From a phage, in sequence record PZ445551.1: a stretch of DNA of 64,000 bases; one strand, 5' to 3'. The notes beneath the pieces were generated by a model, which was not told the DNA's origin, made no database searches, and was given only the letters and a program-made list of their open reading frames with translations. Positions 59,287 through 62,582 of this stretch are shown here, piece after piece. Position 1 is the first letter of the stretch, and each line of letters opens with the position of its first letter. The translations under genes and the position numbers were made by a program.

Positions 59287-59342
59287 CAACATAGCTAGTT
59301 ATTTGCTAAGATAAGCCCAAGTTAAACAAAAAGGAGAAAACT

Positions 59343-59609
59343 ATGACAGAACGTACTTATGGTAAAGAATTGATTGAGAAGCACGTATTGATTGATAATA
59401 AAGGTGGAGCAATCTTTATTTTTGAACCTGAATCAGTTCTTACTGAAAACGAAAATGGTAGCGTTAGCCTTAAAACAGAAAGTTTGGTAATTGACTTCCT
59501 TGCTCTTCTGGATGAAATGGGGCTTCCTCACGAAGAAGAAGCAGCTATTGCTTTGATTGCAGTTCTTCTGGAGAAACGCGAAGCTGGTGAAATGACCCAG
59601 TATGCTTAA
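59343..59609 (+). CDS. hypothetical protein (88 aa)
   Basis: track ORF; RBS aaggagaaa. Confidence 0.55.
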   Translation: MTERTYGKELIEKHVLIDNKGGAIFIFEPESVLTENENGSVSLKTESLVIDFLALLDEMGLPHEEEAAIALIAVLLEKREAGEMTQYA

Positions 59610-59616
59610 TATTCAA

Positions 59617-59692
59617 GGTTCCATAGCTCACTGACGAGAGCGCACACCTCATAAGTGTCGAGGGCAGGGATTGTAACCCTGGGGAACCTCCA
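59617..59692 (+). tRNA. tRNA-Met(CAT) (or Ile2), atypical T-loop ATTGTAA
   Basis: manual cloverleaf: acceptor GGTTCCA/GGGAACC, D-arm GCTC..GAGC, anticodon loop CTCATAA, CCA encoded. Confidence 0.6.
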
Positions 59693-59723
59693 TTTAAAAG
59701 GAGGTGCTATGCATCTCCTATAT

Positions 59724-59809
59724 GCAAGTGTGGTGGAATTGGTGATACACATTGTGCTTAAAACGCAACGCTTAAATGCTTGAGGGTTCGAATCCCTCCA
59801 CTTGCACCA
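59724..59809 (+). tRNA. tRNA-Leu(TAA), type II
   Basis: acceptor GCAAGTG/CACTTGC, anticodon loop CTTAAAA, long variable arm, T-arm GAGGG-TTCGAAT-CCCTC. Confidence 0.75.
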
Positions 59810-59824
59810 ACACCTAAAAATATC

Positions 59825-59853
59825 TTGACATTTACTTAGTTTTTTGTTATAGT
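59825..59853 (+). promoter_or_regulatory. sigma70-like promoter TTGACA-17-TATAGT
   Basis: read directly; 11 nt upstream of the tRNA-like element. Confidence 0.5.
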
Positions 59854-59864
59854 TACTATGAAAA

Positions 59865-59946
59865 CGGGGTGTATCTCACCTGACTTCTAATCAGGCGTTA
59901 ACCGAGTAATTGGAGTATGCAGGTTCGAATCCTGTCACCCCGGCCA
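59865..59946 (+). tRNA. atypical tRNA-Arg(TCT)-like element lacking a D-arm
   Basis: perfect acceptor CGGGGTG/CACCCCG, T-arm GCAGG-TTCGAAT-CCTGT, anticodon hairpin CCTGA-CTTCTAA-TCAGG, but only 7 nt between acceptor and anticodon stem and a 23-nt insert before the T-arm. Confidence 0.4.
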
Positions 59947-60009
59947 AAAAGTTTTAAAAACTACTTGACAAGCAAGATAGTTTTATGTTAGATTTAAAGT
60001 ATAATAACT

Positions 60010-60099
60010 GGAAGGTAGGGCGCAGCGGTGCGCAACCAGGTTTGAACCCTGGCCCATTGTAGCGATACGGTGATGGTTCGACTCCATTATCTTCCTCCA
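60010..60099 (+). tRNA. tRNA-Ser(TGA), type II
   Basis: acceptor GGAAGGT/ATCTTCC, anticodon loop TTTGAAC, long variable arm, CCA encoded. Confidence 0.75.
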
Positions 60100-60117
60100 A
60101 ATTCTCTTAGGAGCTTT

Positions 60118-60270
60118 ATGAATTATAAAACTATTGGACAGGTTGTTACCGGAGTTAAGATTGTAAATAATAAAGTTGTTTATGAGTATTCTAATCTTCA
60201 ACAATCTGAAGATGGTAAGAATATTCGTATGGTAAAAACAGAACAAAAAGATTCCGGTTGTTTTGAATAA
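60118..60270 (+). CDS. small hypothetical protein (50 aa) embedded in tRNA array
   Basis: track ORF 60070..60270 trimmed to ATG 60118 after RBS aggag so it no longer overlaps tRNA-Ser. Confidence 0.45.
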   Translation: MNYKTIGQVVTGVKIVNNKVVYEYSNLQQSEDGKNIRMVKTEQKDSGCFE

Positions 60271-60278
60271 TTAAAAAC

Positions 60279-60364
60279 GGTAGATTGGTGAAATGGTAGC
60301 CACAACAGTTTGCTAAACTGTCGTCGGAAACGGCGTGTAGGTTCAAGTCCTACATCTACCGCCA
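60279..60364 (+). tRNA. tRNA-Ser(GCT), type II
   Basis: acceptor GGTAGAT/ATCTACC, anticodon loop TTGCTAA, long variable arm, T-arm GTAGG-TTCAAGT-CCTAC. Confidence 0.8.
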
Positions 60365-60498
60365 AGTTATCTTTAATGTAGCTTGTAATCTTACTTTAGC
60401 AGAGTAAATCTTCGGCAAGTGGCGGTAACCACTTTACCGATACCCCAATACTTCATAGCTAAGTGCCGCAAACACTGGCTATTTTAAAGATAATTTAT

Positions 60499-60574
60499 AC
60501 ATCGTTAGCTTAGTTGGTAGAGCAAGGGGCTTTTAACTCCAAGGTCGAAGGTTCGAATCCTTCACGATGTACCA
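60499..60574 (+). tRNA. tRNA-Lys(TTT)
   Basis: acceptor ACATCGT/ACGATGT, D-arm GCTT..GAGC, anticodon loop CTTTTAA, T-arm GAAGG-TTCGAAT-CCTTC. Confidence 0.85.
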
Positions 60575-60579
60575 AACAC

Positions 60580-60666
60580 GTAGGTATCGCATAGCGGCAA
60601 TTGCTGGAGACTGTAAATCTCCTGCCCTTCGGGGCTTCGTTGGTTCGAGTCCAACTACCTGCACCA
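60580..60666 (+). tRNA. tRNA-Tyr(GTA), type II
   Basis: anticodon arm GGAGA-CTGTAAA-TCTCC, variable-arm hairpin GCCCC-TTCG-GGGC, T-arm GTTGG-TTCGAGT-CCAAC. Confidence 0.8.
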
Positions 60667-60673
60667 AATTAAA

Positions 60674-60758
60674 GATGGATTGGCCTAGTGGTTGGGCGAC
60701 GGACTGTTAATCCGTGAACGAAAGTTCTAGCAAGGTTCAAATCCTTGATCCATCGCCA
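60674..60758 (+). tRNA. tRNA-Asn(GTT) with unusually long (15-nt) variable arm
   Basis: acceptor GATGGAT/ATCCATC, anticodon arm ACGGA-CTGTTAA-TCCGT, variable hairpin GAAC-GAAA-GTTC, T-arm CAAGG-TTCAAAT-CCTTG. Confidence 0.7.
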
Positions 60759-60837
60759 AATAGTGCTTGTAGAGTTAATAGAAACCTCTAGAATTTTCTA
60801 GAATTGTAGGTATCAAATCCTACCAAGCAAATATTTT

Positions 60838-60912
60838 GCTCCTATCGTATAACGGCTATTACGGTTGCCTTGTAAGCAACTTATCAGGGTTCGAGTCCTT
60901 GTGGGAGCACCA
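60838..60912 (+). tRNA. tRNA-Thr(TGT)
   Basis: acceptor GCTCCTA/TGGGAGC, anticodon arm GTTGC-CTTGTAA-GCAAC, T-arm CAGGG-TTCGAGT-CCTTG. Confidence 0.8.
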
Positions 60913-60935
60913 ATTTTAACTCTAAAGGAGTGTAT

Positions 60936-61259
60936 GTGACAGAAAAAGAGTTAGAGAAATATTTTAATATCAATGTTTTCGATGGTTTTGATGATATTGA
61001 AGATGTTGAAAGATATTATGAAGTAGAGTTAGATAAGGATAACATTGTAATTCTTTCTGCCACTTATGATTGTGCATATTATGAAGGCGAATCTCACGTT
61101 TATTTTTATGATATGAAAACATCTTTGTTTTATGAAGTACACGCATATCATTGTTCTTGTTATGGCTTAGAAGGTCAGTGGGAACCTGAAGAAATAGGTG
61201 ATTTGGACTTTACTATTGCATATCTAAACAGACGTGGTTCATCTACTATTTTAAAATAA
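60936..61259 (+). CDS. hypothetical acidic protein (about 107 aa) embedded in tRNA array
   Basis: track ORF 60930..61259; likely GTG start at 60936, 5 nt after RBS aaggag. Confidence 0.5.
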   Translation: MTEKELEKYFNINVFDGFDDIEDVERYYEVELDKDNIVILSATYDCAYYEGESHVYFYDMKTSLFYEVHAYHCSCYGLEGQWEPEEIGDLDFTIAYLNRRGSSTILK

Positions 61260-61273
61260 ATATCAAAAGCCTC

Positions 61274-61303
61274 TTGACAAAGGGGCTAATAATATGTTAG
61301 AGT
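61274..61303 (+). promoter_or_regulatory. sigma70-like promoter TTGACA-18-TAGAGT
   Basis: read directly; about 12 nt upstream of tRNA-Gly. Confidence 0.5.
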
Positions 61304-61314
61304 AATATTATTAA

Positions 61315-61389
61315 GCGGGTATAGTGTTAATGGTAGCATATGAGGTTTCCACCCTCCAGGTGCAGGTTCAAGTCCTGTTACTCGCTCCA
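61315..61389 (+). tRNA. tRNA-Gly(TCC)
   Basis: acceptor GCGGGTA/TACTCGC, anticodon loop TTTCCAC, T-arm GCAGG-TTCAAGT-CCTGT. Confidence 0.8.
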
Positions 61390-61488
61390 AGATTATTTAA
61401 ATGGAATCGTTAGAGAAAATTTCTCTTTTCGCTCATGGTTTTCTCCTTCAAACTCTAGCGGTTCTTTTTAAGTGATTTTTTAGTTTAT

Positions 61489-61563
61489 TGGAGATTAGCC
61501 TAGTGGGAAGGCAACGGCCTTTGAAGTCGTGATGACTAGGTTCGATTCCTAGATCTCCAGCCA
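61489..61563 (+). tRNA. tRNA-Gln(TTG)
   Basis: acceptor TGGAGAT/ATCTCCA, anticodon arm ACGGC-CTTTGAA-GTCGT, T-arm CTAGG-TTCGATT-CCTAG. Confidence 0.8.
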
Positions 61564-61570
61564 ATATTTA

Positions 61571-61646
61571 CAGTGCGTAGCGCAGTTGGTAGCGTGGGAG
61601 CCTTGGACGCTTCAGGTCGCAGGTTCGAGTCCTGCCGCACTGACCA
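61571..61646 (+). tRNA. tRNA-Pro(TGG)
   Basis: acceptor CAGTGCG/CGCACTG, D-arm GCGC-AGTTGGTA-GCGT, anticodon loop CTTGGAC, T-arm GCAGG-TTCGAGT-CCTGC. Confidence 0.85.
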
Positions 61647-61651
61647 AATTT

Positions 61652-61726
61652 GCAGAGATAGCTGAGACGGATTAGTGCTACCCTGAAAAGGTAGAAAGGA
61701 TGGATCGTTACCATCTCTCTGCACCA
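61652..61726 (+). tRNA. tRNA-Phe(GAA), atypical T-loop ATCGTTA
   Basis: acceptor GCAGAGA/TCTCTGC, anticodon arm CTACC-CTGAAAA-GGTAG, T-stem GATGG/CCATC. Confidence 0.75.
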
Positions 61727-61803
61727 AATAACACCATCCAAGGAGTAGACTTGGTTAACTGTCAATAGCACATTGAGGCTTCTTACAGTGGTGTACTTAT
61801 TAT

Positions 61804-61888
61804 GGCTAAGTGGTGGAATGGTATACACGATACGCTTAGAACGTATTGCCCCAAGGGATTGTGAGTTCGAGTCTCACCTTAGCTACCA
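61804..61888 (+). tRNA. tRNA-Leu(TAG), type II
   Basis: acceptor GGCTAAG/CTTAGCT, anticodon arm ATACG-CTTAGAA-CGTAT, long variable arm, T-arm GTGAG-TTCGAGT-CTCAC. Confidence 0.8.
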
Positions 61889-61903
61889 AATTATTACAGA
61901 TTG

Positions 61904-61982
61904 TGCGGGATAGAGGAGTCTGGTCGTCCTCGCCAGTTTCATATGCTGGAGATCATCGGTTCGAATCCGATTCCCGCCTCCA
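61904..61982 (+). tRNA. tRNA-Met(CAT) (second CAT tRNA; elongator Met, initiator or Ile2)
   Basis: anticodon arm CCAGT-TTCATAT-GCTGG, T-arm ATCGG-TTCGAAT-CCGAT, acceptor with mismatched 1-72 pair. Confidence 0.7.
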
Positions 61983-62040
61983 ATAAATACCTCCCTTCTG
62001 GTGTAATGATTAAGTTACATTGACACTTCAAGGAACTCAT

Positions 62041-62123
62041 AGCCGGGTAGATTTAAAAGAGTATGGTACTCAATATGGCTCCAAACCATAGATCAAGGGG
62101 TTCGATTCCTCACCTTGCTGCCA
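62041..62123 (+). tRNA. atypical tRNA-Trp(CCA)-like element (possible pseudo-tRNA)
   Basis: anticodon arm TATGG-CTCCAAA-CCATA and T-loop TTCGATT present, but 11-nt insert between acceptor 5' strand and D-arm and imperfect acceptor/T stems. Confidence 0.3.
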
Positions 62124-62128
62124 ATTAT

Positions 62129-62204
62129 TGTGGTATCGTACAGATGGTTAGTACACTCGACCGATAATCGAGAAACAACGGTTCGACTCCGTTTACCACG
62201 ACCA
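62129..62204 (+). tRNA. tRNA-Ile(GAT)
   Basis: acceptor TGTGGTA/TACCACG, D-arm GTAC-AGATGGTTA-GTAC, anticodon arm CTCGA-CCGATAA-TCGAG, T-arm AACGG-TTCGACT-CCGTT. Confidence 0.8.
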
Positions 62205-62312
62205 AACTCCGTGCCAGCGGTGTCTTCGAAGAACAAGCCTAGTTCCTTCTGAGATGGAGGGGTGCGACTCCTTAACGCACATACTACTACTAAATACTTA
62301 TCAGGAGATATT

Positions 62313-62582
62313 ATGTATACTTTAAAAGTAATTCGCAAGTTTCCTCAAGAAGAGGAAGTAAGAATTTATAACACTGTCCCATTCGTAGTAAATGAAGAAG
62401 AATTCTTTTATTGCTTAGAAGATGAAGTGATTATTCAATATCATTGGGAAGGTTATGACAGACCAGATGGTGTTGTAGCTTCTGTGATTGCTGGTGAAAG
62501 AGTGTTATTCATTCACAAAACTGAATCAGCATATTTAATGAATGATAAAGGACAAACTGTTAAAGTAATTAACAGACCATAA
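62313..62582 (+). CDS. hypothetical protein (89 aa)
   Basis: track ORF 62262..62582 trimmed to ATG 62313 after RBS caggag. Confidence 0.5.
   Translation: MYTLKVIRKFPQEEEVRIYNTVPFVVNEEEFFYCLEDEVIIQYHWEGYDRPDGVVASVIAGERVLFIHKTESAYLMNDKGQTVKVINRP

What the first reader, a model, noticed from the sequence alone, without database searches (positions are those of the whole stretch)
59865..59946. tRNA-Arg(UCU)-like element missing its D-arm
A perfect 7-bp acceptor stem, a canonical T-arm (GCAGG-TTCGAAT-CCTGT) and an anticodon hairpin with the loop CTTCTAA are all present, and a strong TTGACA-17-TATAGT promoter lies 11 nt upstream. However, only 7 nt separate the acceptor from the anticodon stem, so no D-arm can form, and 23 nt containing a D-loop-like TTGGA segment lie between the anticodon stem and the T-arm. 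It could be a rearranged or degenerate tRNA-Arg, or a tRNA-like decoy for an anticodon nuclease. The decoy idea is speculation.
Basis: partly seen in the sequence, partly recalled or inferred. Interest (0 to 1): 0.55.

Follow-up and report, generated by a model that had tools for sequence, protein, structure and literature searches.

The report
Phage tRNA-Arg with a rewired D-arm
This is a conserved phage gene for an arginine tRNA (anticodon UCU) whose D-arm is not lost but re-threaded: the D-loop sits after the anticodon arm and its stem is made with the short linker. At least 205 phage tRNA genes share this non-cloverleaf design, which the papers I could search do not describe.

Summary
At 59865-59946 there is a 7-bp acceptor stem, a 7-nt linker, an anticodon hairpin with loop CUUCUAA, a 23-nt region, a canonical T-arm, G73 and an encoded CCA. 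A TTGACA-17-TATAGT promoter ends 11 nt upstream.

It is not degenerate. The window is a phi92-like coliphage, and near-identical or 82-86% identical copies occur in Felix O1-like, rV5-like, 121Q-like jumbo and phiEco32-like phages and in a Streptomyces phage.

Scans of viral contigs recovered 205 distinct genes with the same layout. Their anticodons are only Arg (181), Ile (21) and CAU (3).

Covariation shows that linker nt 4-6 (CUC, 59875-77) pair with the 3 nt (GAG, 59904-06) just 5' of a D-loop-like UAAUUGGA. The D stem therefore exists, but it encloses the anticodon arm.

All four E. coli ArgRS identity elements are present (A20, C35, U36, G73). The phage has no canonical tRNA-Arg, and AGA makes up 24% of its Arg codons. 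In phiEco32-like phages the same slot holds either a canonical or a rewired tRNA-Arg(UCU).

Best reading: a working, non-cloverleaf tRNA-Arg(UCU). Expression and charging are not shown. I found no prior description.

The parts
59825..59853 (+). Sigma-70-type promoter TTGACA-17 nt-TATAGT with TG extension. It ends 11 nt upstream of the tRNA 5' end, which predicts a leader of only about 5 nt.
   Evidence: 11 of 12 matches, best site in the 3.1-kb region; sequence. Function as a promoter is inferred.
59865..59871 (+). Acceptor stem, 5' strand (CGGGGUG).
   Evidence: Pairs perfectly with 59936-42. All 7 pairs show double compensatory changes in the family.
59872..59874 (+). U8-A9-like dinucleotide plus one nucleotide (UAU). 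U8 and A9 are invariant in the family.
   Evidence: Invariant columns T8 and A9 in A1 and A2. Watson-Crick pairing of A9/N10 with the final AU is not supported in this class: 20 of 78 cells unpaired.
59875..59877 (+). 5' strand (CUC) of the D-stem-like helix h2. It plays the topological role of the canonical D-stem 3' strand, running into the anticodon stem.
   Evidence: Pairs with GAG 59904-06. Covariation: 93-94% of cells paired; middle pair 78/78 paired with GC 37, CG 20, UA 11, AU 10. RNAalifold predicts it independently.
59878..59878 (+). Single unpaired A between h2 and the anticodon stem (position-26-like).
   Evidence: Sequence. The assignment is inferred.
59879..59895 (+). Anticodon arm: stem CCUGA/UCAGG, loop CUUCUAA, anticodon UCU (59886-88) reading AGA and possibly AGG. 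C35 is at 59887 and U36 at 59888.
   Evidence: The four stem pairs counted in A1 (the outermost pair was left out because of an alignment artefact) all show compensatory changes.
59896..59903 (+). 8-nt connector CGUUAACC between the anticodon stem and h2. It is 4-5 nt in most family members. The motif CGUUAA is conserved in this subclass. Its role is unknown.
   Evidence: Alignment A1.
59904..59906 (+). 3' strand (GAG) of helix h2. It plays the topological role of the canonical D-stem 5' strand and is followed directly by the D-loop-like segment.
   Evidence: Within the window's own subclass the pairs are CTC/GAG, CTT/AAG, CGC/GCG, CCC/GGG, CGG/CCG, CGT/ACG and CAG/CTG.
59907..59914 (+). D-loop-like segment UAAUUGGA (A14-R15-like AA, G18-G19-like GG, A20-like A at 59914).
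   Evidence: T43, G48 invariant and A44, A45 at 90% or more in A1. The nucleotide after GG is A in 170 of 181 Arg-type members and U in 19 of 21 Ile-type members. The tertiary roles are inferred from canonical tRNA.
59915..59918 (+). Connector GUAU to the T stem. The final AU is conserved at 90% or more. The U may take the place of Y48 (inferred).
   Evidence: A53 and T54 nearly invariant.
59919..59935 (+). Canonical T arm GCAGG-UUCGAAU-CCUGU.
59936..59946 (+). Acceptor stem 3' strand CACCCCG, discriminator G73 (59943) and encoded CCA (59944-46).
   Evidence: G73/A73 is a minor ArgRS determinant (PMC9976931). 59943 is the only variable site among six phi92-like copies, G or A.

Best explanation
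The element is a functional gene for a tRNA-Arg(UCU) with a non-cloverleaf secondary structure. It belongs to a large, previously unrecognised family of phage tRNAs, mostly Arg and some Ile.

Shown here:
- The 7-nt linker (U8 A9 U CUC A) pairs through CUC with GAG, which lies just 5' of a D-loop-like UAAUUGGA placed after the anticodon arm.
- The limb therefore reads: 3-bp D-like helix, then a 1 x 8 nt internal loop, then the 5-bp anticodon stem. The D-loop-like segment leaves this helix on its 3' strand and runs through 4 nt into the T stem.
- Compared with a normal tRNA, the '5' D-stem strand plus D loop' has moved from before the anticodon arm to the position of the variable loop.

Inferred:
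- The three changed chain connections join ends that lie next to each other in the normal L-shape (8/9 to 22, 43/44 to 10, 21 to 48/49).
- U8, A14, R15, G18, G19 and a Y48-like U are kept. The RNA can therefore still build the elbow (GG docking on the T loop) and an L-shape.
- It is transcribed from its own promoter, trimmed by RNase P and 3' exonucleases to the encoded CCA, and charged by host ArgRS through A20 (59914), C35, U36 and G73.
- It then supplies decoding of AGA, the rare host codon that this AT-rich phage uses about five times more often.

Why this fold is preferred over a cloverleaf is not known.
For: Structure:
- Helix h2 was tested with anchors that were not fitted to pairing. 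94% of cells pair (n=85) against 55% after partner shuffling and 24-37% in shifted registers.
- On a MAFFT alignment of 78 sequences, all 3 pairs show double changes and 93.2% of cells pair.
- RNAalifold predicts the same helix on its own.
- The sister class with an 8-nt linker has a second 3-bp helix on the other side of the D-loop-like bulge, 94.9% paired.

Family:
- 205 distinct members score at least 46 bits, and no canonical tRNA in the one search listed below that range scored above 36.1 bits.
- Anticodons are only Arg (UCU 118, ACG 26, UCG 25, CCU 11, GCG 1) and Ile or CAU (24).
- Members lie in tRNA clusters, with a median of 7 tRNAs per locus.

Identity:
- Arg-type members have A after GG in 170 of 181 cases. 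Ile-type members have U in 19 of 21, and all 24 Ile/CAU-type members have A73.
- A20, C35, U36 and A/G73 define E. coli Arg identity (PMC9976931).

Need:
- VivaForever, 100% identical over the 801-nt query around the element, has 15 tRNAs and no canonical Arg.
- AGA is 9.7 per 1000 codons and 24% of Arg codons in the window. In E. coli K-12 it is about 3.6% of Arg codons (PMC9965538).
- The Felix O1-like phage EC6 has 23 canonical tRNAs including Arg(ACG) but no Arg(UCU). The rewired gene fills that gap.

Natural replacement:
- In phiEco32-like phages the same intergenic slot holds a canonical tRNA-Arg(UCU), their only tRNA, in UKE3 and ECBP2. In HC-25922 and TH42 it holds the rewired one, and the 1-6bf group carries a rewired copy as well.

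Conservation:
- 1 of 82 sites varies in the element, against 9 of 112 in the adjoining spacers, among six phi92-like copies.

Against: - There is no expression, processing, charging or decoding evidence. All functional steps are inferred.
- For this one sequence the nearest-neighbour model prefers a local hairpin CCGA-GUAA-UUGG (-26.3 kcal/mol) over the h2 fold (-21.4).
- h2 has only 3 bp, and its third pair is unpaired in about 18% of family members.
- 14 of 138 rewired genes share a locus with a canonical tRNA-Arg(UCU). The two are therefore not strictly exchangeable, and the odd fold may serve something beyond supply.
- U73 is common among Arg-type members (51 of 181), which is not the E. 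coli preference.
- The scans that built the family required a GGTTCGAATCC T loop, and two of them required GGA. The census is biased, although the anticodon-based scan gave GGA in all rewired hits.
- The L-shape is argued from topology, not modelled.
Confidence: 0.68

Rival explanations
1. It is a translation-competent tRNA whose unusual core is selected because it escapes a host or competitor factor that recognises the normal D-arm or elbow of tRNA-Arg and tRNA-Ile. Candidates are a tRNA-targeting defence nuclease or toxin. This would be immune evasion by fold rather than by anticodon-loop mutation. It refines the best explanation rather than excluding it.
For: - About 10% of loci carry a canonical and a rewired tRNA-Arg(UCU) side by side, which plain supply does not explain.
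- The fold is restricted to two isotypes, as expected if a specific enemy targets them.
- The rewired allele replaces the canonical one in only some phiEco32-like phages, a patchy pattern typical of arms-race genes.
- Phage tRNAs are known to counter PARIS, retron and other tRNA nucleases (PMC11464382, PMC11555353 and PMC10264068, listed).
Against: - No nuclease specific for tRNA-Arg plus tRNA-Ile is identified here.
- The anticodon loop CUUCUAA is the ordinary one, so an anticodon-loop nuclease would still cut it.
- No defence or anti-defence gene was linked to the element in this work.
Confidence: 0.25
2. It is a tRNA-like decoy or sponge that is not used in translation. It would bind or be cut by an anticodon nuclease, a modification enzyme or ArgRS.
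For: It keeps a normal Arg anticodon loop and T arm, which such enzymes could recognise. ARAGORN rejects it as a tRNA.
Against: - A decoy does not need a perfect 7-bp acceptor stem, a discriminator, an encoded CCA, or A20/A73 that track the anticodon class.
- It is the only Arg-anticodon tRNA in phages that use AGA heavily.
- It occupies the slot of the sole canonical tRNA-Arg in phiEco32-like phages.
Confidence: 0.07
3. It is a truly D-armless tRNA of the mitochondrial tRNA-Ser(AGY) kind, with a class-II-like variable-arm hairpin (CCGA-GUAA-UUGG). The linker stays single-stranded and helix h2 does not form.
For: The single-sequence minimum-free-energy fold gives exactly this. It is 4.9 kcal/mol better than the h2 fold in the nearest-neighbour model.
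Against: - The hairpin is not conserved. EC6, HC-25922 and Turkey5 break its closing pair, and 1-6bf (AGAA...UUGG) and many other members (for example GUG-UAAUUGG) cannot form it.
- The 3 nt before UAA covary with the linker, not with the invariant UGG.
Confidence: 0.08
4. It is a decaying pseudogene left by a deletion or rearrangement of a normal tRNA-Arg gene.
For: Some annotators leave it out or flag it: 'tRNA-OTHER' in VivaForever and unannotated in phi92.
Against: - The same layout recurs in 205 distinct sequences from unrelated phage groups, with compensatory changes in all helices.
- It evolves more slowly than the flanking spacers.
- It has its own strong promoter.
Confidence: 0.02

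Closest known systems
Canonical bacterial and phage tRNA-Arg(UCU), such as E. coli argU, phage T4 tRNA-Arg, and the single tRNA of phiEco32-like phages
   Same: Same anticodon loop CUUCUAA, 7-bp acceptor stem, 5-bp T stem with UUCGAAU loop, and the A20, C35, U36 and G/A73 identity nucleotides. Same genomic niche: tRNA clusters, and the same slot in phiEco32-like phages.
   Different: There is no D hairpin and no 4-5-nt variable loop. The D-loop sequence lies 3' of the anticodon arm, and its stem is formed with the linker so that it encloses the anticodon arm. ARAGORN misses 126 of 138 such genes.
D-armless mitochondrial tRNAs (mammalian mt-tRNA-Ser(AGY), nematode mt-tRNAs; PMC7609411, PMC9427863)
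   Same: A short connector replaces the D hairpin between the acceptor and anticodon stems. The RNA is still thought to act as a tRNA.
   Different: Mitochondrial forms have lost the D loop and the G18-G19/T-loop contacts, and they depend on co-evolved synthetases, EF-Tu and ribosomes. Here the D-loop motif (A14, R15, GG, A20) and a fully canonical T loop are kept, only moved, and the RNA must work with ordinary bacterial machinery.
Class II tRNAs (Leu, Ser, Tyr, Sec) with a long variable arm
   Same: A long segment of 18-31 nt lies between the anticodon stem and the T stem. Rfam aligns the segment as a variable-region insertion.
   Different: Class II tRNAs keep a normal D arm, and their variable region is a self-contained hairpin. 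Here the segment pairs with the 5' linker and carries the D-loop motif.
allo-tRNAs and tRNA-Sec with 8/4 or 9/3 acceptor/T branches (Mukai et al., PMC5389517)
   Same: They are naturally occurring non-canonical tRNA shapes found in bacteria and their phages by metagenome mining. A neighbour in this same cluster (60010-60099) has such an 8/4 shape.
   Different: Those variants change helix lengths but keep the four-arm cloverleaf order. The present family keeps 7/5 and changes the order of the strands.
Circularly permuted or split tRNA genes (Cyanidioschyzon, archaea; PMC3978253) and viral tRNA-like structures (TYMV-type TLS)
   Same: They show that the tRNA L-shape can be encoded with a different strand order.
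   Different: Permuted genes are processed back into a normal cloverleaf. TLSs are 3' UTR elements with pseudoknotted acceptor stems. Here the mature RNA itself would have the changed connectivity, and nothing suggests splicing or circularisation.

Membership tests
tRNA (Rfam RF00005 / functional transfer RNA) | Score at or above the curated gathering threshold of the tRNA covariance model | tested here: met
   38.6 bits against a gathering score of 29. Model positions 1-71 are matched end to end, with the D-arm block (15 positions) replaced by 4 nt.
tRNA (Rfam RF00005 / functional transfer RNA) | 7-bp acceptor stem, 5-bp anticodon stem with a 7-nt loop (U33, purine 37), 5-bp T stem with a TPsiC-type loop, discriminator and CCA | tested here: met
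   Sequence. Covariation is seen in all three helices.
tRNA (Rfam RF00005 / functional transfer RNA) | Cloverleaf D arm: a local hairpin between position 9 and position 26 | tested here: not met
   Only 7 nt lie between the acceptor and anticodon stems. ARAGORN makes no call. A non-local D-like helix replaces it.
tRNA (Rfam RF00005 / functional transfer RNA) | Expression, 5'/3' maturation, aminoacylation and use on the ribosome | not testable with these tools
   This needs tRNA sequencing or a Northern blot, acid-urea gels, in vitro charging, and genetics.
tRNA-Arg identity set (E. coli ArgRS) | A20 in the D loop, C35, U36 or G36, A73 or G73 (PMC9976931) | tested here: met
   A at 59914 directly after GG, C at 59887, U at 59888, G at 59943. 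A follows GG in 170 of 181 Arg-type family members. Whether this A is presented to ArgRS like a canonical A20 is inferred.
Rewired-D-arm phage tRNA family (defined in this work, model R1) | Linker of 7-8 nt starting UA; linker nt 4-6 (or 5-7) paired with the 3 nt 5' of a UAAYUGG(A/U) segment that lies between the anticodon arm and the T arm | tested here: met
   76.1 bits on R1 (the element was in the training alignment). CUC 59875-77 pairs with GAG 59904-06. Homologues in Felix O1-like, Mydovirus, Kuravirus, jumbo and Streptomyces phages that were not in the training set score 65.6-75.5 bits.
D-armless mitochondrial-type tRNA | Loss of the D loop and of D-loop/T-loop contacts; degenerate T loop; dedicated translation factors | tested here: not met
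   The D-loop motif with GG and a consensus T loop UUCGAAU are retained and nearly invariant. The host is E. coli with standard machinery.
Class II (long variable arm) tRNA | Normal D arm plus a self-paired variable-arm hairpin | tested here: not met
   There is no D arm. The candidate hairpin CCGA/UUGG is predicted only for single sequences and is not conserved or covarying.

The most novel reading that the evidence does not exclude
Phages have evolved, and spread across unrelated lineages, a second architecture for elongator tRNA. It is a strand-swapped core in which the anticodon arm is nested inside the D stem, and it works with unmodified bacterial ArgRS/IleRS, EF-Tu and ribosomes. Its selective value would be that it makes tRNA-Arg and tRNA-Ile invisible to a host tRNA-targeting immune nuclease or toxin that reads the normal D-arm or elbow. 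That would be immune evasion by refolding the tRNA body.
Probability: 0.22. Interest if true: 0.92.

Novelty: new variant of a known kind. Interest (0 to 1): 0.8.

Why it matters
The cloverleaf is treated as universal for bacterial-type translation. [quoted passage not shown]

If these genes work, common laboratory and therapy phages of E. coli and Salmonella (phi92, Felix O1-like, rV5-like, 121Q-like, some phiEco32-like) already supply a natural non-cloverleaf tRNA that standard bacterial machinery accepts. Four consequences follow:
- It gives a direct test of which parts of the tRNA core ArgRS, RNase P, EF-Tu, modification enzymes and the ribosome really need.
- It offers a new scaffold for orthogonal tRNA engineering.
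- It shows that ARAGORN, and many annotated genome records, miss a class of tRNA genes. ARAGORN missed 126 of 138, and some records lay protein-coding genes over them. Phage tRNA repertoires and codon-supply analyses are therefore incomplete.
- It raises the question of why only Arg and Ile tRNAs took this form, which may point to an unknown tRNA-targeting defence.

Tried and rejected
- **Alternative normal cloverleaf.** Neither Rfam nor ARAGORN finds one. By hand, no 3-4-bp D hairpin fits into 7 nt.
- **Linker pairing with the second GAG or the 3' end of the 23-nt region (AU-CUC/GAG-U-AU).** This was my first idea. I dropped it because family covariation places the partner strand just 5' of UAAUUGG. 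A9/N10 with the final AU is not supported (20 of 78 cells unpaired).
- **Variable-arm hairpin CCGA-GUAA-UUGG.** It is favoured by energy for this sequence but is not conserved.
- **Host origin or prophage.** There is no match in 5,426 complete E. coli genomes.
- **Scan of bacterial genomes for the motif.** Most of the 120 hits were ordinary tRNA-Ser variable arms (GGGUAACUGGA), a false-positive class of my pattern. About 16 were true rewired genes, all in metagenome-assembled genomes. I did not check whether these lie on prophage or mis-binned phage contigs.
- **Strict mutual exclusion with canonical tRNA-Arg(UCU).** This was rejected: 14 of 138 rewired genes co-occur with one.
- **Other isotypes with this fold.** None were found among 205 family members in about 2.5 Mb of phage loci, but those loci were chosen with Arg-biased patterns.
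- **Literature.** Eight full-text searches and readings of reviews on non-canonical tRNAs and tRNA identity found no description of this architecture. Absence from this library is not proof.
Full report
**1. The observation**

The sequence at 59865-59946 reads:

CGGGGTG TATCTCA CCTGA CTTCTAA TCAGG CGTTAACCGAGTAATTGGAGTAT GCAGG TTCGAAT CCTGT CACCCCG G CCA.

- a perfect 7-bp acceptor stem;
- a 7-nt linker;
- a 5-bp anticodon stem with loop CUUCUAA (anticodon UCU);
- a 23-nt region that contains TTGGA;
- a consensus T arm, a discriminator G and an encoded CCA.

The promoter TTGACA-17-TATAGT at 59825-59853 is the best consensus match in the tRNA region. It matches 11 of 12 positions, has a TG extension, and ends 11 nt upstream.

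Rfam's tRNA model scores the element 38.6 bits, above its gathering score of 29. It aligns it end to end but replaces the 15 D-arm positions with 4 nt and treats the 23 nt as a variable-region insertion. ARAGORN other tRNAs in the window but not this one.

**2. Where the window comes from and who else has the element**

The region is 100% identical to Escherichia phage VivaForever and 98-99% identical to phi92 and other Justusliebigvirus phages.
- VivaForever annotates the element as 'tRNA-OTHER'.
- phi92 and Paula leave it unannotated.

A sensitive search with the element alone found full-length copies at 82-86% identity in unrelated phage groups:
- Felixounavirus (EC6, Si3, bumzen);
- Mydovirus KNP2 (Vequintavirinae);
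- Kuravirus-like podophages (HC-25922, 1-6bf);
- 121Q/PBECO4-like jumbo phages (Turkey5);
- a Streptomyces phage (Stanimal).

These copies are almost never annotated as tRNA. Some records place a 'hypothetical protein', an 'HNH endonuclease' or a 'tRNA-Leu' over them. No similar sequence exists in 5,426 complete E. coli genomes.

**3. A family, not an accident**

I ran pattern scans of IMG/VR viral contigs. One required CTTCTAA followed at 22-40 nt by GGTTCGAATCC. Two required GTAAT(T)GGA followed at 3-14 nt by the same T loop. A simple parser then gave about 140 distinct genes with the same layout.

I built a covariance model (R1) from 78 of them and ran it over about 280 phage loci.
- It found 205 distinct members scoring about 46-91 bits.
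- In the one search that also listed weaker matches, no ordinary tRNA scored above 36.1 bits.
- Homologues from named phages that were not in the training set score 65.6-75.5 bits.
- The members sit in tRNA clusters, with a median of 7 ARAGORN tRNAs per locus.
- ARAGORN itself misses 126 of 138 of them.

**4. The structure**

The family has two layouts, with a 7-nt linker (the window type) or an 8-nt linker. In both, the linker starts with an invariant U-A. The long region contains a nearly invariant UAAYUGG(A), which is the D-loop consensus (A14, R15, Y16, Y17, G18, G19, A20).

The three linker nucleotides before the last one pair with the three nucleotides immediately 5' of that motif. I tested this in three ways.

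- **Fixed anchors, not fitted to pairing.**
  - 94% of cells pair in the 7-nt class (n=85). The middle pair is 85/85 paired, with UA 11, CG 20, GC 41 and AU 13.
  - 90% pair in the 8-nt class (n=53).
  - After shuffling partners the figures are 55% and 64%. In shifted registers they are 19-40%.
- **A MAFFT alignment of 78 sequences.** All three pairs show changes on both sides, and 93.2% of cells pair. For the whole structure, 96.8% of cells pair against 64.7% in shuffles and 35-45% when partners are slid.
- **RNAalifold.** It predicts the same helix with no input from me.

In the 8-nt class a second 3-bp helix joins linker nt 2-4 to the 3 nt just after GGA. It is 94.9% paired, with types AGC/GCU, AAC/GUU, AGU/ACU, ACA/UGU and ACC/GGU. 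In that class the D-loop-like segment is therefore a 7-8-nt bulge in one continuous helix that stacks on the anticodon stem. In the window's class this second helix is not supported: A9/N10 against the conserved final AU leaves 20 of 78 cells unpaired.

For the window element, the helix is CUC 59875-77 with GAG 59904-06. Within its own subclass, marked by the connector CGUUAA, the helix covaries cleanly as CUC/GAG, CUU/AAG, CGC/GCG, CCC/GGG, CGG/CCG, CGU/ACG and CAG/CUG.

One caveat applies. For the single window sequence, the energy model prefers a local hairpin CCGA-GUAA-UUGG (-26.3 kcal/mol, against -21.4 for the h2 fold). That hairpin is broken or impossible in many relatives, and it does not covary.

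**5. What the topology means (inference)**

In a normal tRNA the chain runs: acceptor, 8-9, D 5' strand, D loop, D 3' strand, 26, anticodon arm, variable loop, T arm.

Here it runs: acceptor, U8-A9-N, a strand that runs straight into the anticodon stem as the D 3' strand does, the anticodon arm, a 4-8-nt connector, a strand followed by the D loop as the D 5' strand is, the D-loop-like segment, 2-6 nt ending in U, and the T arm.

The three changed connections join ends that are neighbours in the known L-shape: 8/9 next to 21/22, 43/44 next to 10, and 21 next to 48/49. The nucleotides that build the core and elbow are retained (U8, A14, R15, G18, G19, a Y48-like U, and the T-loop U54/A58/C56 positions).

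An L-shape is therefore plausible. I could not model it.

**6. Function**

Several independent lines point to a decoding tRNA-Arg.

- **(a) Identity elements.** E. coli ArgRS relies mainly on A20 in the D loop, then on C35, U/G36 and A/G73 (PMC9976931). The element has all four (59914, 59887, 59888, 59943).
  - Across the family, Arg-type anticodons go with A after GG in 170 of 181 members.
  - Ile-type anticodons (UAU, GAU) go with U in 19 of 21.
  - All 24 Ile/CAU-type members have A73.
  - Two of the scans required GGA. In the scan that did not, every rewired UCU gene still had GGA.
- **(b) Need.**
  - The VivaForever genome has 15 tRNAs, all inside this window, and none is a canonical tRNA-Arg.
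  - AGA is 9.7 per 1000 codons and 24% of Arg codons in the window's ORFs. It is about 3.6% of Arg codons in E. coli K-12 (PMC9965538).
  - The other tRNAs of the cluster also read A- or U-ending codons.
  - The Felix O1-like phage EC6 has 23 canonical tRNAs, including Arg(ACG), but no Arg(UCU). The rewired gene sits between Ile(GAU) and Ser(UGA).
- **(c) A natural swap.**
  - phiEco32-like phages are reported to have a single tRNA, tRNA-Arg(UCU), explained by AGA usage (PMC9965538).
  - In UKE3 and ECBP2 that gene is a normal cloverleaf.
  - In HC-25922 and TH42, between flanks that are about 95% identical to UKE3, the rewired gene lies in the same place. The 1-6bf group also carries a rewired copy.
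- **(d) Several isoacceptors per phage.** Some contigs carry two or three rewired tRNAs with different Arg anticodons or with Ile anticodons. This fits a set of decoders.
- **(e) Conservation.** Among six phi92-like copies, one of 82 sites varies (the discriminator, G or A). Nine of 112 sites vary in the adjoining spacers.

Against a pure supply role, 14 of 138 rewired genes share a locus with an unrelated canonical tRNA-Arg(UCU), sometimes directly adjacent. Why only Arg and Ile tRNAs adopt this fold is also unexplained. An advantage against a tRNA-targeting defence is an attractive guess, but it is untested.

**7. Comparison with what is known**

The element passes the Rfam tRNA threshold and has Arg identity elements, but it fails the defining cloverleaf feature of a local D hairpin. 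It also differs from each of the nearest known types:
- **Mitochondrial D-armless tRNAs.** It keeps the D-loop motif and a consensus T loop, and it must work with standard bacterial factors.
- **Class II tRNAs.** It has no D arm, and the long region is not a self-contained hairpin.
- **allo-tRNAs.** It keeps the 7/5 branch.
- **Permuted genes.** Nothing suggests re-joining of the strands.

Eight full-text searches and two reviews of non-canonical tRNAs and tRNA identity gave no description of this architecture. A 2024 paper states that all known bacterial tRNAs are cloverleaves (PMC11551756). I therefore rate it a new variant of a known kind, with the reservation that the searchable library is incomplete.

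**8. Verdict**

- The reading as a degenerate or decoy element is not supported.
- The element is most likely a working tRNA-Arg(UCU) of a widespread, overlooked, non-cloverleaf phage tRNA family.
- Confidence is about 0.9 in the family and its secondary structure, and about 0.68 in function in translation.
- Interest is high, because the claim can be tested directly in well-known E. coli phages.

Noticed in passing
window 60010-60099 (+): The next gene, tRNA-Ser(UGA), also looks non-canonical. Its minimum-free-energy fold has an 8-bp acceptor stem, a 5-bp D stem with a 4-nt loop, a 7-bp variable arm and a 4-bp T stem, an 8/4 shape like allo-tRNA or tRNA-Sec. The Rfam tRNA model misses it at its gathering score. 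The best match is tRNA-Sec at 35.3 bits, below that model's threshold of 47. The phi92 record flags it as a pseudogene.
   Followed up: partly
window 59617-59692 (+): Only ARAGORN calls this tRNA-Met(CAU). It does not reach the Rfam tRNA threshold. Its T loop is AUUGUAA rather than UUCRANU. phi92 labels it 'hypothetical tRNA'. Whether it is a Met, an Ile2 (lysidine) or a defective tRNA is open.
   Followed up: no
window about 59815; L008, L012, L014: PD06-like relatives carry an insertion of about 125 nt between tRNA-Leu(UAA) and the promoter of the rewired tRNA. It contains a T-arm-like GGTTCGATTCC, so it may be an extra tRNA or a tRNA fragment.
   Followed up: no
L397 about 1605-1640 and further downstream; L401: In Kuravirus HC-25922 an orphan tRNA 3' half (GGAGGGTTCGAATCCTTCCGTCCCGACCA) lies just downstream of the rewired tRNA. 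A second orphan 3' half (CTGGTTCGATTCCAGATAGTCCACCA) lies downstream in both HC-25922 and UKE3. These may be scars of tRNA cassette exchange, perhaps linked to the HNH or homing endonucleases annotated nearby.
   Followed up: no
L013, L033, L048, L051, L090 (viral contigs): These are tRNAs with a normal D arm plus a long class-II-type variable arm, but with a UCU anticodon. They could be type-II tRNA-Arg or Ser-like bodies reading AGA. They are a different oddity from the rewired family.
   Followed up: no
window 59300-62400: Promoter-like sites are enriched in the tRNA cluster: 17 found against 7.4 +/- 2.6 in shuffles. Three strong TTGACA sites (59825, 59965, 61274) each precede a tRNA. This suggests several short transcription units rather than one operon.
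   Followed up: no
GenBank records of 121Q, bumzen, 1-6bf, FM4b and others: Public annotations place protein-coding genes ('hypothetical protein', 'HNH endonuclease') or a wrong 'tRNA-Leu' over rewired tRNA genes.
   Followed up: partly
L343, L277, L316, L340, L357, L294 and others (bacterial MAG contigs): About 16 true rewired tRNA genes occur in metagenome-assembled bacterial genomes, including a 4.2-Mb Methyloligellaceae contig and Blastocatellia contigs. I did not determine whether they lie in prophages, in mis-binned phage contigs, or are cellular genes.
   Followed up: no
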